Made by a program: the position numbers and the translations under genes | Shown: piece after piece, positions 13,609-62,061 of the stretch | How positions within the stretch are numbered: the first letter of the stretch is position 1 | How the letters are laid out: every line of letters starts with the position of its first letter | Notes under the pieces: generated by a model | What the model was told of the DNA's origin: nothing | Database searches by the model: none | Seen by the model: the letters and a program-made list of their open reading frames with translations, nothing else | Source of the DNA: a virus | Lineage: Duplodnaviria; Heunggongvirae; Uroviricota; Caudoviricetes | Length of the DNA stretch: 64,000 nucleotides | IMG/VR virus record: IMGVR_UViG_2675903313_000009 | Direction: 5' to 3' (one strand)

Positions 13609-13683
13609 GATGGTGTAGCTCAGCGGTAGAGCAGTTGGCTGTTAACCAACTGGTCGGTGGTTCGAATCCACCCACCATCGCCA
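13609..13683 (+). tRNA. tRNA-Asn (anticodon GUU)
   Basis: cloverleaf read by eye: acceptor GATGGTG/CACCATC, anticodon loop CTGTTAA, T-loop TTCGAAT, encoded CCA. Confidence 0.85.
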
Positions 13684-13688
13684 ATTTA

Positions 13689-13775
13689 GGGGAGTTAGTC
13701 CGTAGAGGTAGCGGTGTAGACTGTAAATCTACTGTCATGGCGACTCGGGTGGTTCGACTCCATCACTCCCCACCA
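13689..13775 (+). tRNA. tRNA-Tyr (anticodon GUA), class II with long variable arm
   Basis: acceptor GGGGAGT/ACTCCCC, anticodon stem GTAGA/TCTAC with loop CTGTAAA, T-loop TTCGACT, encoded CCA; D-arm not fully resolved. Confidence 0.7.
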
Positions 13776-13779
13776 AATT

Positions 13780-13855
13780 GCCGGTTTAGCTCAGTTGGTA
13801 GAGCAGTCGCTTTGTAAGCGAATGGCCAGCGGTTCAAGTCCGTTAACCGGCACCA
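13780..13855 (+). tRNA. tRNA-Thr (anticodon UGU)
   Basis: acceptor GCCGGTT/AACCGGC, D-arm GCTC-AGTTGGTA-GAGC, anticodon loop TTTGTAA, T-loop TTCAAGT, encoded CCA. Confidence 0.8.
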
Positions 13856-13863
13856 ACACAACA

Positions 13864-13939
13864 GGTAAGAGCATTGGGCGAATCGGCGATACTGACCCAC
13901 AAGGCCGTAAATCGATAGAGTCAGACCAGTGCTCTTACC
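13864..13939 (+). other. inverted-repeat hairpin between tRNA-Thr and tRNA-Ser (14-bp stem)
   Basis: ggtaagagcattgg pairs with ccagtgctcttacc (one G-U), loop about 48 nt. Confidence 0.5.
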
Positions 13940-14045
13940 GTTGTGATGAATGCACAGGCTGATGTGCCGCAACTACAGTAGTGCGCGCTTTGCGGGGCTT
14001 GCTACAACCCTGTGTCGGAGTTCAGTACCGACCATCACAATAGCT

Positions 14046-14132
14046 GGAGAGTAGGGAGCATGGTGCTCAAGCGGTCTTGAAAACCGTTCCATTGTGCAAA
14101 CGATGATGGTTCGATTCCATTACTCTCCGCCA
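14046..14132 (+). tRNA. tRNA-Ser (anticodon UGA), class II
   Basis: acceptor GGAGAGT/ACTCTCC, anticodon stem GCGGT/ACCGT with loop CTTGAAA, long variable arm, T-loop TTCGATT, encoded CCA. Confidence 0.7.
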
Positions 14133-54250: not shown

Positions 54251-55936
54251 ATGAATACAGCCCTTTCCATCATCGACGATGCCAGCTCAAACACGGCTAT
54301 CGACTATCGTCAGGAAATGAATGTCATCCACGAAATCGTGGCCGAGTGCGAGAAAGAGATCGCCTTCATGTATCAGGTACACGACTTCGTTTATGGCGAC
54401 GAACGCCACAACATGATTAATCGCCTGCTGAGACTAAACCATCGACCAGATGAAGATCGCTCGCGTTTAAATCGAGGTTGGTTGGATAAAGTCGATCTGG
54501 AATGGGTGAAACAGAATATTTGGGCCGAGTACTGGAGGAAGGTCACGGACATGACTAACGTTTTGCTGATCATGCCAGCTTCCCGTCGAGATGAGTGGCG
54601 CGAGCAGTTTATAGAGGGCAAACAGGAAGTCATCAAAACTGACAGAACCGGCTACCAGATGAAGGTTAAAGAGTTCGTTGGTGTACCGGAGTTCAAAGCA
54701 GAAACGGTCATACCCACGATGCTTAATTTGCTGAATGACAGGCACAAATATCTCTCTGAGCGCGTGTATGGCTTGTTTAAGGCGCTGAGTCCTGCGCACA
54801 AGACAAATAAGACAAACGGTTTCAGCGAGCGTCTGATAATCGCTGACTGCATTTCTGATTTCTGGCGGGACAGCGTTAGCGTGAACTATCGCAAAGAGGA
54901 CTACATCGACGATCTGCGTGTCTTGCTTCATTTCTTCGCGCACAAAGAATTTATTACCATCAACCGCACTGCTGAGGTGCTATCAGCTGCGTATCGGGCA
55001 AACGACTGCCAGACCGGTGACTGGATGAACGTCGATGGAAATCTGATGCGCGTGAAGATGTTCAAGAACGGCAACGTTCACTTTGAAATACATCCTGACG
55101 TGGCCTGGAAGTTGAATGAGGTGCTGGCTTACAGTATGCCTGCTGCAATCCCCGCGCCATGCCGAACTGCGCCAAAAACACGGGCACCAAAGCAGTTCGG
55201 GTTAATCCAGAAGACGATCTCCGTGCCGGTTCGCACTGCGCTTCGTGACGGGCGATTGAGCAAAGACAAAGGCGTATGGTACTTCTCTGATTCAGCTCTC
55301 CAGAAGTCGCAGGTGGAAGAGCTTGAGCGCACACTGAGCTTCATTGGCGGCGTGCAGGAGAAAAAGCACTGGCAGTTCCCGTATGACATCGGCCATACGC
55401 TAAATACGATTGTGGCTACCGGTTTAATACCGGATACAAAATCACACCAGTTCTACCCTACCCCACGCTTGATTGCTGAGTACGTTGCAAGAGCCACTGA
55501 ATTGAAGCCTGGTGAGAAGCTGTTGGAGCCTCAAGCCGGACGTGGGGATCTTCTGGCCTATATAAACGCCGATCTGGAAGATGTTACCTGCATAGAAATC
55601 GCACCTCTCTTCGCTGATATCCTGCGTGGAAAAGGGTATACGAACACGATTTGCTGCGACTTCATAAAGTGGTCTGAGGACAACGCAGGTTATCAGTTCG
55701 ACAAAATCGTTATGAACCCGCCGTACTCGCTTGGTCGTCATAGAGAGCACACGCTGGCTGCGCTGGGGCATCTGAAAGTCGGCGGGCGTCTTGTAGCAGT
55801 ATTGCCGGGCACTGCGCCAATACTGGACTGGATGACGATGGATAATTACGTTTATGCCAGAGGGAAGTCGTTTACCAACGAGTTTGAAGACACAGGGATC
55901 ACAGTCAGCGTATACGTTTTCAAACGCGTTAAATGA
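54251..55936 (+). CDS. DNA N6-adenine methyltransferase fused to a large N-terminal domain of unknown function
   Basis: C-terminal region with FYPTPRLIAEYV, FxGxG-like LEPQAGRGDLL and catalytic NPPYS; about 400 aa of unassigned N-terminal sequence. Confidence 0.6.
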   Translation: MNTALSIIDDASSNTAIDYRQEMNVIHEIVAECEKEIAFMYQVHDFVYGDERHNMINRLLRLNHRPDEDRSRLNRGWLDKVDLEWVKQNIWAEYWRKVTDMTNVLLIMPASRRDEWREQFIEGKQEVIKTDRTGYQMKVKEFVGVPEFKAETVIPTMLNLLNDRHKYLSERVYGLFKALSPAHKTNKTNGFSERLIIADCISDFWRDSVSVNYRKEDYIDDLRVLLHFFAHKEFITINRTAEVLSAAYRANDCQTGDWMNVDGNLMRVKMFKNGNVHFEIHPDVAWKLNEVLAYSMPAAIPAPCRTAPKTRAPKQFGLIQKTISVPVRTALRDGRLSKDKGVWYFSDSALQKSQVEELERTLSFIGGVQEKKHWQFPYDIGHTLNTIVATGLIPDTKSHQFYPTPRLIAEYVARATELKPGEKLLEPQAGRGDLLAYINADLEDVTCIEIAPLFADILRGKGYTNTICCDFIKWSEDNAGYQFDKIVMNPPYSLGRHREHTLAALGHLKVGGRLVAVLPGTAPILDWMTMDNYVYARGKSFTNEFEDTGITVSVYVFKRVK

Positions 55937-57220: not shown

Positions 57221-57721
57221 ATGAGTAACAAAATCGAAAATCCCGTAGTTCTCATTCACAAGCGCGAGAACCACGACTCCTATGCGGTGGCGATCACCAA
57301 TGGGAGTCACGATTTTTACGATGGCCTGCTAATGGCCTCAGTGTCGCCTGATGAGGCAGACAACTCTTTTGCCGTCTTCGCTATGGTTGGTTACTACATG
57401 GCTGCCGAAATTGAGAAGTTGCGGGCGCAAAGAGACGCATTAGCGGCGGAGAATGCAGCCCTGAAAGAATCTGAGCGAGCATTCGATGCGATGTGTGCCG
57501 AGGAACACGGAGATAATTGGGTTAGCGAATTAACGGAGACTCCAGCCACCGATACTTTTCTGGCTGAAGTACGTGCGCAGGGCGTGGATATGGCTCGTAA
57601 CGCGATGATTGATTTTGTTGATGGTGAAGTTGGGCCAAACAAGAACGTTCCGGGGCTGATTAGAGGCGCAGAGATATGCGTAAGTATTGCTGAACAGCTT
57701 CGTAAAGGAGTCATCCAGTGA
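57221..57721 (+). CDS. hypothetical protein
   Basis: 166 aa; start context gaagagaaaaacacATG. Confidence 0.5.
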   Translation: MSNKIENPVVLIHKRENHDSYAVAITNGSHDFYDGLLMASVSPDEADNSFAVFAMVGYYMAAEIEKLRAQRDALAAENAALKESERAFDAMCAEEHGDNWVSELTETPATDTFLAEVRAQGVDMARNAMIDFVDGEVGPNKNVPGLIRGAEICVSIAEQLRKGVIQ

Positions 57722-58185
57722 GCAAGATTGACTATCAGGCACTGCGTGAAAAGGCAGAGAAAGCAACGTGTGGTGAGTGGTCGCTCGAATATGGAGAGAG
57801 CCGATTAGATGGTGATGATGCGCTAATTCATCGTGAAGTTGCTGGATATATTCCTATTTGCAGAATTGAAGGAGCGCATCCTGAAAGCGGTTTCGATGAA
57901 GATTTCCAGATGGAACAGCAGGCCAATGCTGAATTCATCGCCGCAGCCAGTCCAGCTACCGTGCTGGCACTACTGGATGAGATCAACGCATTAGAGGAAA
58001 CGCGTATCAACGATGTTTGCCGTATTGCGGAACTAACAAAACAACTGGAGTTGGCAAAATCAAAACTCAACGAGCAGCGTGAGTATTACGAGGGCGTTAT
58101 CTCGGATGGAAGTAAGCGCATAGCCGCTCTTCTTCGCAAGGACAATCTTGCCAGCGCCACGAACATTGAAGGTGAAAGAAAATGA
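57718..58185 (+). CDS. hypothetical coiled-coil protein (possibly Ea22-like; unverified)
   Basis: N-terminus [21 protein letters not shown] recalls prophage ead/Ea22-like proteins from memory; needs a search. Confidence 0.4.
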
Positions 58186-58505
58186 CCACATCGCACTCTG
58201 CTATTACCCAAGAAAAAGCCTTCAACATACTCGAACGACTAGAGACGCTCGCTACGGAGGAGGATATATCCCCGGAGAAACTGGTTGAGTTCAGCCGTGT
58301 GATATTGCGTCGCAAGAACGATATGGAGCGGCTGACATCTGGCGCTCCATCCTTATCAGTCAGGCGAACACTTTGTTGCAGCTTCTGCAACAAATCCCAG
58401 TACGCCGTCAAAAAGTTAATTGCTGGGGACGCCGTTTTCATCTGCGACGAGTGTGTGGATGTGTGCAACAGAATTATCCGGGGAGAGAAAGAGGGATCAG
58501 CATGA
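58182..58505 (+). CDS. small protein with ClpX-type C4 zinc-finger domain
   Basis: [34 protein letters not shown] closely parallels the ClpX N-terminal zinc-binding domain ([34 protein letters not shown]). Confidence 0.75.
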
Positions 58506-59032
58506 AATTTTCCAAATTTTCTGAGTTGGTGAATCGTATTTTGTCCAACAACCACAGCCATCGTCGCGATATGGATGTAACGATCGTTGTTCATTCGCCT
58601 GGTCGCATCGGTTCAACACCATCAGTTGAGGTTCAGTCAATTCAGGCGGGTTTTGATTGGGATGCCGGGCAAGTGATGATTTTTCCAGCACAGCCACTGA
58701 CCACGCTAACACCAGAGCAGGTTGCTGATATCACTGATAGTGTGCGCAAAGGTCAGTCTTGGCACGCGTATCAGGAATACAAGAAGCATAAAGAGCAGTT
58801 GGAAAAATTGTCGATGGAGTTGGAAGCCGCTAAACAGCGGGAAAAAGATCTGTTTATGGAAAATGTTCGACTTAAGTCAGGTATAGCCGGTCTGATACAC
58901 CTCGGTATTCGATATGCGGATGTTGAGGTCATGAAAATTGCTGGAGATGCCCAGCTTTCTACTCCATGCACTGACAGCATCATAAACAGCATTGCAGCAG
59001 GCATTTTCACCAAAGAGGGGGCAGCACGATGA
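58502..59032 (+). CDS. hypothetical protein
   Basis: 176 aa; ATGA overlap with the preceding ORF; ORF open from 58373. Confidence 0.45.
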
Positions 59033-59214
59033 GAACACTAGAGGTTCGCGCTGAAGACGTAATCCCTGGTGATGTGCTCATAACATCTAAAGGTCAACAA
59101 TGTGCGGTTAAATCTTTTTGGATGGAAAATGACAAAGTGACTCTGTTCGGTACGGATGGTTCCGAAACTGATTATGACTACGACGAATTGCTTGTTGTTG
59201 AGAGAGCTGCCTAA
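59029..59214 (+). CDS. hypothetical small protein
   Basis: 61 aa; overlapping start/stop. Confidence 0.4.
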   Translation: MRTLEVRAEDVIPGDVLITSKGQQCAVKSFWMENDKVTLFGTDGSETDYDYDELLVVERAA

Positions 59215-59867
59215 TGACCACCGTTAACAATAAGAAATGCTACCCAAGCGAGAAATATCTTAATGAGCTGATCACCAACATTGAGTTTGCTGCAAGGGCA
59301 CCAGTTGAAGTCGTGAGAGCGATTGCAGCAGAGCTACAGAAGCACCGTAAGGCCTATGCCAATACAGCCGCATCTAAGGATGGTTGGATAAGCTGTAGTG
59401 AGCGAATGCCTGTAATTGGCGAGCTAAATTGGAGAACTAGTTTTCCTTTACTGGTTATGTGTGAGATCGGCGTTATACCTGCTTATTACGGCTTTGTGAG
59501 CGTTAATGGTGATAGGCATTATGGCTTTATGGAGAGTCTTAAATACGGAGACGATAACGGCAACCATCCTCAAACTAATGAATATGGTCTGATTAGCAAT
59601 GTCACACACTGGATGCCACTACCAGAACGCCGCAGGAGTCGAACAGTGAATAATGCAGAGTTATTTCAGAAAATATCGGCTCTCGCGACTGAATGCCACG
59701 CTATAGCATCTGAGCTTGATGTTGGCGATGAACGAACCGAGATGTTCGAAATATACAGTGTGCTGCGCAATCTCTGTCGGCGTGGCTACGCCACTCAAGT
59801 AGGGCGAATGACTAACCCACTACTCTCATCCTGTGATGAGGATGACTCGGATGAGGATGACGAATGA
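59214..59867 (+). CDS. hypothetical protein with acidic C-terminus
   Basis: 217-codon ORF in a tightly packed operon. Confidence 0.45.
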   Translation: MTTVNNKKCYPSEKYLNELITNIEFAARAPVEVVRAIAAELQKHRKAYANTAASKDGWISCSERMPVIGELNWRTSFPLLVMCEIGVIPAYYGFVSVNGDRHYGFMESLKYGDDNGNHPQTNEYGLISNVTHWMPLPERRRSRTVNNAELFQKISALATECHAIASELDVGDERTEMFEIYSVLRNLCRRGYATQVGRMTNPLLSSCDEDDSDEDDE

Positions 59868-60247
59868 TGCATAAATCAGTAGCCGGTGAGTTTCAGAAGG
59901 AAGTCGATAATACCACTGATCTATTGGACGATATTTTAAGCATTCTCGCGCTGCTTGAGGCTGGCGATTGGTCAGAACATTGCACTAAAACAGAGCTAGG
60001 CGGTCGGCTTGAAAGAGAGATTACACGACTGATTAGCGATGCCCAAAATGATTTGTCACCTGAGCATCTCCCCTGCGATGTAGTTCTTGTGCCAGGGATG
60101 AGGATACACGAAGGCGTCAGAACGAAAACATTATTAACCGCATTACAGAGAAGAGCCGAACTAAGCTCGCGGATAAAGTTGATGCCATCCAAAATATTTG
60201 ATGTCGTCAAATTTACGCCATCGCAACATACTGAGAGAGATAAATGA
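59864..60247 (+). CDS. hypothetical protein
   Basis: 127 aa; overlapping start/stop. Confidence 0.45.
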   Translation: MMHKSVAGEFQKEVDNTTDLLDDILSILALLEAGDWSEHCTKTELGGRLEREITRLISDAQNDLSPEHLPCDVVLVPGMRIHEGVRTKTLLTALQRRAELSSRIKLMPSKIFDVVKFTPSQHTERDK

Positions 60248-60870
60248 GCACGGTAGCGAAAGATCTCACAGAAGATATTCTCAATGAAATTATTGCTGGT
60301 GCAAATACCTCGCTTGAGCAACTTCTTGCGTTAGCACTGAGAGCCGAACGTCGAGACAGAAATCGTTTTTATGAGCGATTACCAGGGAAGCGACCAGATA
60401 GATCGGATGAAGAAGGTTGCGATATAGACTACATGGAGCCTTCAGAGATTTATCAACTTGGTAAAGATGACGGCTGGAACGCTTATCACGATGCTGTGAT
60501 GAAGTTGGATGAAAAAGTTAAACCTCTTTCTCGACCGGTAGATCACGGTTTCCGCGATAACTGCGAATGCTCTAGTTGCCAGACCACGGCCCGTATTTGT
60601 TCCGAATTGACAGATAAGTCCAGCCTAATCTACGAAGTTAATGTAGGCGGTAATACATGGGTCGAATGCACAAGAGCTGCATACGTAAGAGCAAAAGACA
60701 AGGGTGAATTAACCAGAGTTGTTACCCATCACCCAAATAATGAGCTTAAAGATCACCAGATTAGAGAACTGGTGAACGAGTTGCGGGATATTGCGGTTCA
60801 GTACCACGGAGCGCAGCAATTGCGGGAGAAAATTGCCAGAGCAGTGAACAACTCAGTCCGTAAAAAATAA
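60244..60870 (+). CDS. hypothetical protein (last phage-type ORF before the junction region)
   Basis: 208 aa; overlapping start with the previous ORF; followed by a hairpin lacking a T-run. Confidence 0.45.
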   Translation: MSTVAKDLTEDILNEIIAGANTSLEQLLALALRAERRDRNRFYERLPGKRPDRSDEEGCDIDYMEPSEIYQLGKDDGWNAYHDAVMKLDEKVKPLSRPVDHGFRDNCECSSCQTTARICSELTDKSSLIYEVNVGGNTWVECTRAAYVRAKDKGELTRVVTHHPNNELKDHQIRELVNELRDIAVQYHGAQQLREKIARAVNNSVRKK

Positions 60871-61671: not shown

Positions 61672-62061
61672 ATGGGCTTCCCTTCTCCTGCGGCGGATTA
61701 TGCTGAGAGCCGTATTTCTCTTGATCAGCAGATAATTAGACATCCTTCAGCGACCTACTTCATGAGGGCAGCTGATAGTCATCATCGTGAGGGAATATTA
61801 CAGGGTGCATTGCTGGTGGTCGATTCCTCACTTACCCCGGTTGATGGTTCTCTGCTTGTATGCGCTCTGGATGGGGAATATCGCGTAAAAAGATACCGGA
61901 AGTATCCACGTCAGCATCTGGAGGATTTAAGAACCGGTAAGAAGGAAGCATTGCCAAAGGATGACGATGGATGCACGGGCAGCAATGCCGTGTTTGGTGT
62001 GATCACTCACATTATCAACGACGCAAGAAGTGGCGAGTTTGATGATTGTCCCGTGATGTAG
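61672..62061 (+). CDS. UmuD'-like (pre-truncated UmuD/S24 peptidase family) protein
   Basis: starts GFPSPAADY (the UmuD' N-terminus), then HPSATYF, DS(H), DGEYRVK and VFGVITHI parallel UmuD; no N-terminal cleavage region. Confidence 0.75.
   Translation: MGFPSPAADYAESRISLDQQIIRHPSATYFMRAADSHHREGILQGALLVVDSSLTPVDGSLLVCALDGEYRVKRYRKYPRQHLEDLRTGKKEALPKDDDGCTGSNAVFGVITHIINDARSGEFDDCPVM

What the first reader, a model, noticed from the sequence alone, without database searches (positions are those of the whole stretch)
58182..58505. Small phage protein carrying a near-canonical ClpX zinc-finger domain
The C-terminal 35 residues ([34 protein letters not shown]) match the ClpX N-terminal C4 zinc-binding domain almost position for position, but the protein is only 107 aa and has no AAA+ module. 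The ClpX ZBD dimerises and docks adaptors and substrates, so a free-standing copy could hetero-dimerise with host ClpX or compete for adaptors. That would modulate ClpXP degradation of phage or host proteins, a plausible host-takeover or anti-proteolysis mechanism.
Basis: partly seen in the sequence, partly recalled or inferred. Interest (0 to 1): 0.6.

Follow-up and report, generated by a model that had tools for sequence, protein, structure and literature searches.

The report
Phage-borne copy of ClpX docking domain
A temperate phage-plasmid of E. coli carries a small gene whose product is a private two-helix domain joined to a faithful copy of the zinc domain that the host ClpX protease uses to dock adaptors and some substrates; it most likely acts as a decoy that changes what ClpXP degrades, but this has not been tested.

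Summary
The ORF at 58182-58505 (+) encodes 107 aa. Residues 64-105 are a ClpX-type C4 zinc-binding domain (ZBD): Pfam PF06689 E 1.2e-15, 28/40 residues identical to E. coli ClpX, and a predicted fold 0.5-0.6 Å from the ClpX ZBD crystal structures. There is no AAA+ module.

This is a conserved helical hairpin (residues 10-52) found only in this family, joined to the ZBD by a flexible linker.

The window is an SSU5-like phage-plasmid. The gene is a self-contained accessory gene in a translationally coupled Ea22-type operon. Relatives occur in about 4% of complete E. coli genomes: SSU5-like and D6/P1-like phage-plasmids, and P88-like P2-family prophages, including the one in UTI89. Both domains are under purifying selection, and synonymous sites against host clpX are near saturation.

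My best explanation (confidence about 0.45) is a soluble decoy of the ClpX N-domain that competes for adaptors and N-domain-dependent substrates. Published work shows that isolated ZBD added in trans inhibits RssB-dependent σS degradation.

No characterisation of this family turned up in the literature searches. Databases annotate it by domain name only, or wrongly as "carboxylate--amine ligase". I rate it a new variant of a known kind, of moderate interest.

The parts
58182..58505 (+). Complete gene: 107-aa protein (12.0 kDa) made of an N-terminal helical hairpin, a linker and a C-terminal ClpX-type zinc-binding domain
   Evidence: ORF list and sequence. Full-length match to PHROG 6797, unknown function, E 4e-58. 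24 full-length relatives at 63-99% identity. Molecular weight.
58170..58175 (+). Shine-Dalgarno-like AGGTGA, 6 nt upstream of the ATG
   Evidence: Read directly from the sequence.
58209..58337 (+). Residues 10-52: two-helix hairpin (H10-26 acidic, H31-52 basic), the family-specific domain
   Evidence: AlphaFold2 models, with block pLDDT 82-93 using the 29-sequence alignment. E21 and E27 are invariant; E11, K12, A13, E18, R19, L23, A24, E26, L42, R43, R44, D47 and L51 are nearly invariant. Searching 1.84 billion representatives found this domain only in family members or their truncated forms, apart from two long proteins that matched short helical stretches. Charge.
58338..58370 (+). Residues 53-63: flexible linker ([11 protein letters not shown])
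   Evidence: Low pLDDT (blocks 53-62) and no secondary structure. Length and sequence vary across the family.
58371..58496 (+). Residues 64-105: ClpX-type C4 zinc-binding domain (two short strands plus a C-terminal helix)
   Evidence: Pfam PF06689 E 1.2e-15. PDB ClpX ZBD E 1e-14. Foldseek top hits are 2DS5, 2DS6 and 2DS8 at rmsd 0.5-0.6 Å over 38 columns, 71% identity.
58377..58454 (+). The four Zn-ligand cysteine codons: C66 (58377-79), C69 (58386-88), C88 (58443-45), C91 (58452-54)
   Evidence: Read from the sequence. Invariant in all family members aligned. They align to ClpX Cys14/17/36/39.
57718..58185 (+). Upstream neighbour, an Ead/Ea22-like protein. Its TGA stop overlaps the ATG of the ZBD gene (ATGA).
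   Evidence: Pfam PF13935 E 2.4e-24. Overlap read from the sequence.
58502..59032 (+). Downstream neighbour (176 aa, PHROG 6026/368, unknown function). Its ATG overlaps the TGA stop of the ZBD gene.
   Evidence: It is not conserved next to the ZBD gene in other phage lineages.
57221..60870 (+). Accessory operon of eight mosaic Ea-type genes. Six of its seven junctions are 4-bp start/stop overlaps; at the seventh the genes share one base (59214).
   Evidence: ORF coordinates; Pfam and PHROG matches.

Best explanation
The protein is a soluble, free-standing copy of the ClpX N-terminal docking domain, carried by temperate phages and phage-plasmids. The ZBD half folds and binds zinc like the ClpX N-domain. 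By inference it also dimerises and presents the same hydrophobic client-binding patch. It therefore competes with the ZBDs of the host ClpX hexamer for molecules that must dock there. These include adaptors (the XB tail of SspB, RssB, the UmuD arm) and N-domain-dependent substrates (λO-type initiators, MuA, FtsZ, unfolded antitoxin degrons such as MqsA). The result would be selective stabilisation of that subset of ClpXP substrates. Degradation of substrates recognised directly at the ClpX pore, such as ssrA tags, would be spared. The family-specific helical hairpin, tethered by a flexible linker, most likely adds self-association (avidity) or a second, specific contact that narrows or strengthens the decoy's choice of targets.

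Shown here: domain identity, predicted fold, the two-domain architecture, purifying selection, single-gene modularity and distribution. Inferred: zinc binding, dimerisation, client binding and every physiological consequence.
For: 1. Domain identity and fold: Pfam E 1.2e-15; PDB ClpX ZBD E 1e-14; predicted structure 0.5-0.6 Å from 2DS5, 2DS6 and 2DS8.
2. Similarity is held by selection, not by recent capture. The ZBD is 70-78% identical to E. coli ClpX in protein but only 63-66% in DNA. Only 9-15 of the 24-31 identical residues use the same codon. Host clpX does not match the gene by blastn: only 220 of 5426 genomes hit. dN/dS is 0.16-0.6 for both domains in diverged pairs.
3. The client-binding patch is kept. 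The ClpX F16 equivalent (F68) is invariant. The I46 equivalent (I98) is I, V or L in 22 of 24 window-type sequences and I or V in 10 of 11 P88-type and other relatives. F16 and I46 lie in the hydrophobic side pocket that overlaps the λO, SspB and RssB sites (PMC7804408).
4. Mechanistic precedent: isolated ClpX ZBD at 5-20 µM inhibits RssB-dependent σS degradation by 0.6 µM ClpXP (PMC7226468). The N-domain directly binds UmuD', λO, MuA, FtsZ, SspB and the MqsA degron (PMC8808172).
5. The gene is a stand-alone unit. No neighbour is conserved across the three carrier lineages, and there is no PADLOC defence-system match.
6. Small free-standing ZBD genes recur in unrelated phages: a Caulobacter phage Cr30 ORF, a 65-aa protein of Pseudomonas phage PP9W2, and PHROG 12435.
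7. Phage inhibitors of host proteases are an established strategy (T7 Gp4.5, T4 PinA, λ RexB; PMC10286901).
Against: No binding or activity data exist for this family; nine literature searches found none.

Some ligand-contact positions differ from ClpX. The equivalent of ClpX L12 (Met-counted) is T in 28 of 35 family members, and ClpX L12S impairs MqsA-degron binding. H23, important for the SspB tail, is Y in the window protein and H or Y across most of the family. The conserved AGP becomes AGD or AGE in the window subfamily, although the P88 subfamily keeps AGPSVYIC.

In vitro, a free ZBD needs a large molar excess to compete, so high expression or added avidity would be required.

A pure decoy does not explain the strongly conserved N-terminal hairpin.

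ZBD modules also occur in bacteria fused to HTH-like or second zinc-finger domains, so a ZBD need not act on the ClpX pathway.

The timing of expression (lysogenic or lytic) is unknown; promoter scans were uninformative.
Confidence: 0.45

Rival explanations
1. The ZBD is only a zinc-stabilised dimerisation or peptide-binding module. The protein's real target is something unrelated to ClpXP and is recognised by the helical hairpin or by a re-tuned ZBD surface. On this reading it is an Ea-type accessory factor acting on a phage or host protein or on DNA.
For: Half of the protein is a conserved private domain. ZBD modules occur in bacteria joined to HTH-like or second C4 domains. Several contact positions differ from ClpX. 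The gene sits among mosaic Ead/Ea22-type genes of unknown function.
Against: The ZBD is far better conserved relative to the host's own ClpX (70-78%, with near-saturated synonymous sites) than a mere scaffold would need to be. The client patch residues F16 and I46 are retained. The P88 subfamily keeps the enterobacterial AGPSVYIC...VDLCN string exactly.
Confidence: 0.25
2. Poison subunit. The phage ZBD hetero-dimerises with the N-domain of newly made ClpX subunits. The resulting hexamers have docking domains that are capped or re-specified by the attached hairpin.
For: The ZBD is a dimerisation domain in ClpX (PMC9035409; ZBD dimers cross-link readily). The core hydrophobic positions are conserved in the phage copy: L64, I80, I87, V92, I99 and the C95 equivalent. 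The ZBDs of two ClpX hexamers can also associate with each other in a Listeria cryo-EM structure.
Against: The isolated ClpX ZBD is described as a very stable homodimer (Wojtyra 2003, my own knowledge), and each ClpX hexamer pairs its own ZBDs intramolecularly at high local concentration, so exchange should be disfavoured. No multimer modelling was possible with these tools.
Confidence: 0.12
3. Adaptor or bridge. The hairpin binds a specific target, and the ZBD tethers it to ClpXP indirectly, for example through a bivalent adaptor such as SspB or through ZBD-ZBD association, to promote degradation of that target.
For: Two independently folded domains on a flexible linker is the classic adaptor layout. 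A phage adaptor-like modulator of ClpCP is known (SPO1 Gp53, PMC6873191).
Against: Known ClpX adaptors dock onto the ZBD with short peptide motifs; they do not carry a ZBD themselves. No convincing XB motif is present. The conserved L42-R43-R44 lies in a predicted helix and lacks the hydrophobic fourth residue.
Confidence: 0.1
4. A decaying fragment of a captured clpX gene, or a chance ORF with no function.
For: Many database 'stand-alone ZBD' entries are truncated or frameshifted clpX genes.
Against: The architecture is fixed and intact across three phage lineages and hundreds of genomes. dN/dS is below 1 in both domains. The gene is translationally coupled within an operon. There is no residual AAA+ sequence.
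Confidence: 0.02

Closest known systems
[quoted passage not shown]
   Same: Same Pfam family, same four Cys ligands with the same spacing, 70-78% sequence identity, and a predicted fold within 0.5-0.6 Å. The hydrophobic client patch (F16, I46) is retained.
   Different: It is not attached to an AAA+ motor. It sits at the C-terminus of the protein rather than the N-terminus and is preceded by a private helical hairpin. In the window subfamily, L12→T, H23→Y and P32→D/E (Met-counted numbering).
Recombinant isolated ClpX ZBD used as a competitor in vitro
   Same: A free ZBD without the motor. It inhibits RssB-dependent σS degradation by ClpXP and binds RssB directly (PMC7226468). This is exactly the activity proposed for the phage protein.
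   Different: That is a laboratory construct. Here the free ZBD is a natural, selected gene of mobile elements with an extra domain. The activity of the phage protein is untested.
Anti-adaptors IraD, IraP and IraM of E. coli
   Same: They are small proteins that stabilise a ClpXP substrate (σS) by occupying the adaptor RssB. The ZBD and IraD are proposed to share a docking site on RssB (PMC7226468).
   Different: There is no sequence or fold relationship. The Ira proteins are specific for RssB, whereas a ZBD decoy could act on several adaptors and substrates.
Phage inhibitors or modulators of host AAA+ proteases: T7 Gp4.5 and T4 PinA (Lon), λ RexB (ClpP-dependent degradation of λO and antitoxins), SPO1 Gp53 (ClpCP)
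   Same: They share the strategic logic that a phage protein re-programmes host regulated proteolysis. That logic includes protecting antitoxins to defeat protease-dependent toxin-antitoxin defence (PMC10286901; PMC6873191).
   Different: None of them is a copy of the protease's own docking domain. There is no homology. This would be inhibition by domain mimicry and would be restricted to N-domain-dependent clients.
Other free-standing ZBD proteins: PHROG 12435 and the Pseudomonas phage PP9W2 65-aa 'Clp protease', the Caulobacter phage Cr30 small ORF, and bacterial ZBD+HTH-like and ZBD+second-finger families
   Same: They have the same ZBD without an AAA+ module. None has a described function in the sources seen.
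   Different: Their partner domains differ or are absent. The helical hairpin is unique to the enterobacterial family.

Membership tests
Pfam PF06689 zf-C4_ClpX (ClpX-type C4 zinc-binding domain) | Profile score above the curated gathering threshold | tested here: met
   57.5 bits against 27, E 1.2e-15, covering profile positions 2-38 of 39.
Pfam PF06689 zf-C4_ClpX (ClpX-type C4 zinc-binding domain) | Four cysteine Zn ligands, CxxC-(18)-CxxC | tested here: met
   C66, C69, C88 and C91 align to ClpX C14/17/36/39 and are invariant in the family.
Pfam PF06689 zf-C4_ClpX (ClpX-type C4 zinc-binding domain) | ZBD fold (short β-strands plus a C-terminal helix) | tested here: met
   AlphaFold2 model with ZBD block pLDDT 85-93. 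The best Foldseek hits are 2DS5, 2DS6 and 2DS8 at rmsd 0.5-0.6 Å. This is a prediction, not an experiment.
Pfam PF06689 zf-C4_ClpX (ClpX-type C4 zinc-binding domain) | Zinc binding and homodimerisation | not testable with these tools
   Needs metal analysis and SEC-MALS or NMR. No multimer modelling was available.
ClpX AAA+ unfoldase | AAA+ module (Walker A/B, pore loops, IGF loop) following the ZBD | tested here: not met
   The protein is 107 aa and ends 2 residues after the ZBD helix. The NCBIfam ClpX equivalogs score 41.9 and 39.7 bits against cut-offs of 359 and 371, and only on the ZBD. It is not a ClpX.
Functional class: competitor or decoy of the ClpX N-domain (works like isolated ZBD in trans) | Retention of the hydrophobic client-binding patch (ClpX F16 and I46) | tested here: met
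   F68 is invariant. I98 is I, V or L in 22 of 24 window-type sequences and I or V in 10 of 11 other relatives. The role of the patch is from PMC7804408.
Functional class: competitor or decoy of the ClpX N-domain (works like isolated ZBD in trans) | Retention of the residues shown to matter for the SspB tail and MqsA degron (Met-counted L12, L13, H23) | tested here: inconclusive
   L13 is kept as L or I (L64). L12 is T in 28 of 35 sequences. H23 is Y in the window protein and H or Y in 30 of 35 sequences. The mutational data are from PMC8808172.
Functional class: competitor or decoy of the ClpX N-domain (works like isolated ZBD in trans) | Binds adaptors or substrates and inhibits their ClpXP degradation | not testable with these tools
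   Biochemistry is required.
ClpX adaptors (SspB, RssB, UmuD type) | XB-type peptide motif (LRVVK or LREI-like, extended) that docks on the ClpX ZBD | tested here: inconclusive
   The only candidate is the conserved L42-R43-R44-K45. It lies in a predicted helix, and its fourth residue is K or E rather than hydrophobic. This is a weak resemblance judged partly from memory of the motif.
Known anti-phage defence systems (PADLOC-DB v2) | Match to any defence-system protein model | tested here: not met
   No PADLOC hit for the ZBD protein or its two neighbours at E ≤ 0.01.
Carboxylate--amine ligase (the name PGAP gives to many family members) | Any ligase domain | tested here: not met
   The only Pfam or NCBIfam signal is the ClpX zinc finger. 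The name appears and is a mis-annotation.

The most novel reading that the evidence does not exclude
Temperate phages and phage-plasmids of Enterobacteriaceae, and independently phages of Caulobacter and Pseudomonas, have captured the substrate- and adaptor-docking domain of the host ClpX. They deploy it as a natural dominant-negative decoy. On this reading the protein selectively switches off the adaptor-dependent and N-domain-dependent branch of ClpXP proteolysis, stabilising for example σS, UmuD'/HumD, replication initiators or antitoxins. General ssrA-type quality control would be left intact. This would be the first natural 'docking-domain mimic' inhibitor of an AAA+ protease, present in about 4% of E. 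coli genomes.
Probability: 0.35. Interest if true: 0.7.

Novelty: new variant of a known kind. Interest (0 to 1): 0.5.

Why it matters
ClpXP sets the levels of σS (general stress response), UmuD' (SOS mutagenesis), replication initiators, FtsZ and several antitoxins, and most of this control runs through the ClpX N-domain. A mobile-element gene that decoys this domain would give phages and phage-plasmids a way to tune host stress resistance, mutagenesis, plasmid or prophage maintenance and toxin-antitoxin-based defence, without killing the protease.

The family is in roughly 1 in 25 complete E. coli genomes, including prophages of uropathogenic strains such as UTI89 and an ST131 isolate. Any such effect would therefore be relevant at the population level.

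The protein could also serve as a natural, genetically encodable, selective inhibitor of adaptor-dependent ClpXP degradation.

The hypothesis can be tested directly with reagents and assays that already exist, and one carrier phage (PhiR41_1) is recorded with host K-12 MG1655.

Tried and rejected
1. Defence-system membership: no PADLOC hit for the protein or its neighbours.

2. Two-gene module: all-against-all BLASTP of the flanking genes in the SSU5-like, D6, P88/UTI89 and three other prophage loci found no neighbour conserved across lineages. Only a short Ead/Ea22 N-terminal motif is shared. I treat the gene as a single-gene unit.

3. Recent capture from host clpX: rejected. DNA identity to E. 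coli clpX is 63-66% over the ZBD, codon usage at identical residues is scrambled, and blastn does not match host clpX.

4. Relatives of the N-terminal domain: phmmer of residues 1-61 against 1.84 billion representatives returned only family members or truncated and frameshifted copies. Two long proteins also matched, but only over short helical stretches, and I did not inspect them. This gave no functional lead.

5. Fold search for the hairpin: PDB and BFVD searches were dominated by the ZBD. Nothing significant matched the hairpin.

6. Promoter and terminator scans around the gene in the window and in the UTI89 prophage were uninformative, with fewer promoter-like sites than in shuffled sequence. 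Expression timing is therefore unresolved.

7. Literature: nine full-text searches found no study of a free-standing phage ZBD. One search was badly designed and returned only generic prophage papers. Thibault 2006 (PNAS) could not be read.

8. Testing whether Cr30's ZBD is closest to its own host's ClpX: the homology search returned too few hits to tell.

9. The opposite-strand ORF 58097..58594 (165 aa) was considered and dismissed. The + strand frame carries the Pfam domain, conservation and dN/dS below 1.
Full report
**1. The observation**

The ORF at 58182-58505 (+) is real: ATG start, TGA stop, 107 aa. An AGGTGA Shine-Dalgarno-like sequence lies 6 nt upstream. The ATG overlaps the stop of the upstream Ead/Ea22-like gene (ATGA), and the stop overlaps the ATG of the next gene. 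The gene is therefore embedded in a translationally coupled accessory operon, 57221-60870.

Residues 65-100 match Pfam zf-C4_ClpX with E 1.2e-15, at 57.5 bits against a gathering score of 27. Against all PDB sequences the only hits are ClpX. The isolated E. coli ZBD (2DS5, 1OVX) gives E 1e-14 in a gap-free alignment of residues 62-102 to ClpX 10-50. 28 of 40 positions are identical to E. coli ClpX.

There is no AAA+ module. The NCBIfam ClpX equivalogs reach about 40 bits against cut-offs of about 360, and only on the ZBD.

**2. What the window is**

The region is 99% identical to Escherichia phage CMS-2020a and 96-100% identical to ~108-kb non-mobilizable E. coli plasmids. It encodes a phage DNA polymerase, a DnaB-like helicase, ribonucleotide reductase, SbcC-like, UmuD-like and ParA-like proteins and a tRNA cluster. 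It is an SSU5-like phage-plasmid. 'Phage protein' is correct, and specifically it belongs to a temperate, plasmid-borne prophage.

**3. Anatomy of the protein**

AlphaFold2 with a 29-sequence family alignment gives two confidently folded parts (the 24-sequence run gave the same topology):
- a helical hairpin, H10-26 and H31-52, with block pLDDT 82-93;
- the ZBD, residues 64-105, with block pLDDT 85-93.

A low-confidence linker (53-63) joins them. The pTM is only 0.40, so the two domains have no defined mutual orientation.

The ZBD part superposes on the crystal structures 2DS5, 2DS6 and 2DS8 at 0.5-0.6 Å. Helix 1 is acidic and helix 2 is basic.

The hairpin is as conserved as the ZBD. E21 and E27 are invariant, and E11, K12, A13, E18, R19, L23, A24, E26, L42, R43, R44, D47 and L51 are nearly invariant. 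A full HMMER scan of 1.84 billion representative proteins found the hairpin only in family members or their truncated copies. Two long proteins also matched over short helical stretches, and I did not inspect them. The architecture hairpin-linker-ZBD is therefore fixed and private to this family.

**4. Distribution**

Full-length relatives are confined to Escherichia, Salmonella, Shigella and Klebsiella.
- Among 50,697 phage records, only SSU5-like phages (CMS-2020a ×2, PhiR41_1), the P1-like phage-plasmid D6, and the P2-family phages P88 and PhiR44_2 carry it. No lambdoid phage does, even though the neighbouring Ea22-type genes are shared with lambdoid phages.
- In PLSDB, 95 plasmid records cover at least 80% of the protein; the carriers listed are 75-216 kb (mostly 87-121 kb), and 114 of the 118 matching records are non-mobilizable.
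- Among 5,426 complete E. coli genomes, 220 (4.1%) have a DNA-level match: 106 places on plasmids and 127 on chromosomes.
- Every chromosomal locus I read lies in a P88-like P2-family prophage, including UTI89. There the gene sits in a fixed position directly after gpA-ParM-StbB, ahead of variable cargo and the portal gene.
- No flanking gene is conserved across the three lineages, and there is no PADLOC hit. The gene behaves as a self-contained accessory module.
- RefSeq names it 'ClpX C4-type zinc finger protein' or, without any basis, 'carboxylate--amine ligase'. PHROG 6797 lists it as unknown function.

**5. Evolution**

The P88/UTI89 subfamily keeps the enterobacterial ClpX string [15 protein letters not shown] and is 31/40 identical to E. 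coli ClpX. The window subfamily has drifted to AGDAVFIC...VDVCN and is 28/40 identical. The hairpins of the two subfamilies are homologous, and a natural chimera exists (P0139). One capture of a γ-proteobacterial-type ZBD, followed by divergence and recombination, is the simplest history.

The capture is not recent. Nucleotide identity to E. coli clpX is 63-66%. Only 9-15 of the 24-31 identical residues use the same codon. blastn does not match host clpX at all.

Pairwise dN/dS in diverged pairs is 0.16-0.41 for the hairpin and 0.18-0.59 for the ZBD. Close pairs have too few changes to interpret. In window versus D6, for example, the hairpin is identical in protein while the ZBD has ω≈1.1, which may reflect recombination. 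The high protein similarity to ClpX is therefore maintained by selection. This argues that the ClpX-like surface matters, and not only the zinc scaffold.

**6. Is the functional surface kept?**

[quoted passage not shown] That pocket overlaps the λO, TF, SspB and RssB binding sites (PMC7804408). The equivalent F68 is invariant. I98 is I, V or L in 22 of 24 window-type sequences and I or V in 10 of 11 others.

In Met-counted numbering, the ClpX mutations L12S, L13A/D and H23A impair binding of the MqsA degron, and H23 also contributes to SspB-tail binding. A30S is neutral (PMC8808172). In the phage family:
- L13 is kept (L64 in the window; L or I in the family);
- H23 is H or Y in 30 of 35 sequences (Y74 in the window);
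- L12 is T in 28 of 35;
- the following AGP is AGD or AGE in the window subfamily.

The surface is thus largely ClpX-like but probably re-tuned.

**7. Mechanism**

Established knowledge sets the frame. The ClpX N-domain is the docking site for SspB, RssB and UmuD, and for substrates such as λO, MuA, FtsZ, UmuD' and unfolded MqsA, whereas ssrA-tagged proteins bypass it. A purified free ZBD at 5-20 µM inhibits RssB-dependent σS degradation by 0.6 µM ClpXP and cross-links to RssB (PMC7226468).

The most economical reading is that the phage protein is a natural version of that reagent. It would be a decoy that titrates N-domain clients and so selectively stabilises that subset of ClpXP substrates. 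The hairpin would add avidity or a second specific contact. I put this at about 0.45.

Which client matters is open. The candidates are:
- RssB and σS, acting like an IraD-type anti-adaptor;
- antitoxins such as MqsA or Phd, an anti-TA role analogous to T7 Gp4.5, T4 PinA and λ RexB (PMC10286901);
- Mu-type transpososomes, which would give exclusion of Mu-like phages;
- the phage-plasmid's own pre-cleaved UmuD' homologue at 61672-62061, which host UmuD would otherwise tether to ClpXP.

The last idea cannot be general. No umuD homologue was seen in the P88-like prophage loci I read.

**8. Rivals**

- The ZBD is merely a dimerisation or peptide-binding scaffold for a target unrelated to ClpXP (about 0.25). 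This is supported by the private hairpin and by bacterial ZBD+HTH-like and ZBD+finger proteins.
- Hetero-dimerisation with ClpX subunits, the 'poison subunit' model (about 0.12). The interface residues are conserved, but ClpX pairs its own ZBDs at high local concentration.
- An adaptor or bridge that promotes degradation (about 0.10).
- A non-functional relic (about 0.02), contradicted by conservation.

None of these could be separated computationally. Multimer modelling was not available.

**9. Comparison with what is known, and novelty**

The protein is a member of the Pfam zf-C4_ClpX domain family: score, ligands and predicted fold were all tested and met. It is not a ClpX, because the AAA+ module was tested for and is absent.

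It would work like the isolated ZBD used in vitro, and like the anti-adaptors and phage protease inhibitors. It is not homologous to any of those.

Small free-standing ZBD genes also occur in unrelated phages: an ORF of up to 79 aa in Caulobacter phage Cr30 that the record splits into two CDS, and a 65-aa protein of Pseudomonas phage PP9W2 with PHROG 12435. This suggests recurrent capture.

Nine full-text searches found no functional study of any of them. The library does not hold most subscription-journal papers, so absence is not proof.

The domain call itself is already in RefSeq. What is new is the recognition of a fixed two-domain family, its restriction to three temperate-phage and phage-plasmid lineages, the evidence for selection on the ClpX-like surface, and a specific testable mechanism.

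Verdict: a new variant of a known kind, interest about 0.5.

Noticed in passing
window 61672-62061 (+): A UmuD-like gene whose product starts M-GFPSPAADY. That is exactly the residue after the UmuD Cys24/Gly25 self-cleavage site, and it aligns from residue 1 of UmuD' (PDB 1UMU, E 7e-23). It is a 'pre-activated' UmuD'-type protein. From memory, P1 HumD has the same pre-cleaved form. Host UmuD tethers UmuD' to ClpXP through the ClpX N-domain, so this protein is a conceivable client of the ZBD decoy.
   Followed up: partly
window 54251-55936 (+): A 561-aa protein with a DUF4942 domain and a C-terminal N6-adenine methyltransferase-like half. It matches the PADLOC model mad2 (mads_2, E 1e-15) and type II MTase models. 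It may be an orphan or anti-restriction methylase, or a defence component.
   Followed up: no
window 57221-60870 (+): Eight consecutive small mosaic genes (Ead/Ea22-, EaA- and DUF551-like and unknowns). Six of the seven junctions are 4-bp ATGA/GTGA start-stop overlaps; at the seventh the genes share one base (59214). This looks like one translationally coupled accessory operon. The pieces are shared with lambdoid, P1-like and P22-like phages.
   Followed up: partly
window 13609-14132 (+): A cluster of four tRNA genes (Asn-GTT, Tyr-GTA, Thr-TGT, Ser-TGA) in the phage-plasmid.
   Followed up: no
L002:5004-5336 (P88), L003:5001-5321 (D6), and many RefSeq/GenBank records: Many family members are named 'carboxylate--amine ligase' in public records. 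The only detectable domain is the ClpX zinc finger, so the name is a propagated mis-annotation.
   Followed up: yes
L013:1522-1761 (Caulobacter phage Cr30, NC_025422 81470-81709): A small ORF (up to 79 aa) encodes a free-standing ClpX-type ZBD ([37 protein letters not shown]). The record splits it into two hypothetical CDS. This is an independent example in a phage unrelated to the enterobacterial carriers (from memory, Cr30 is virulent and T4-like).
   Followed up: partly
proteins P0161/P0184/P0213 (136 aa) and P0029/P0031/P0034/P0089: Bacterial stand-alone ZBD families with other partners: ZBD plus a C-terminal HTH-like segment (…GVSWARIGEALGMTRQSAWERF…), and ZBD plus a second CxxC…CxxC finger. 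These show the ZBD is a reusable module outside ClpX.
   Followed up: no
protein P0139 (110 aa, E. coli): A natural chimera with a window-type N-terminal hairpin joined to a P88-type ZBD ([16 protein letters not shown]). This indicates recombination between the two subfamilies at the linker.
   Followed up: no
window 58305-58316 (residues 42-45, LRRK): L42-R43-R44 is among the best conserved stretches of the hairpin. It faintly resembles the XB ClpX-docking motif (SspB LRVVK, UmuD LREI). However, it is predicted helical and lacks the hydrophobic fourth residue, so this is probably coincidence.
   Followed up: partly
L010:4491-6162, L004/L008/L011:4439-6333 (P88-like prophages): In P2-family prophages the ZBD gene always directly follows a ParM/StbB-type plasmid partition pair, downstream of the gpA replication gene. 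All three lineages that carry the ZBD gene have plasmid-type partition functions, which hints at a link with an extrachromosomal prophage lifestyle.
   Followed up: no
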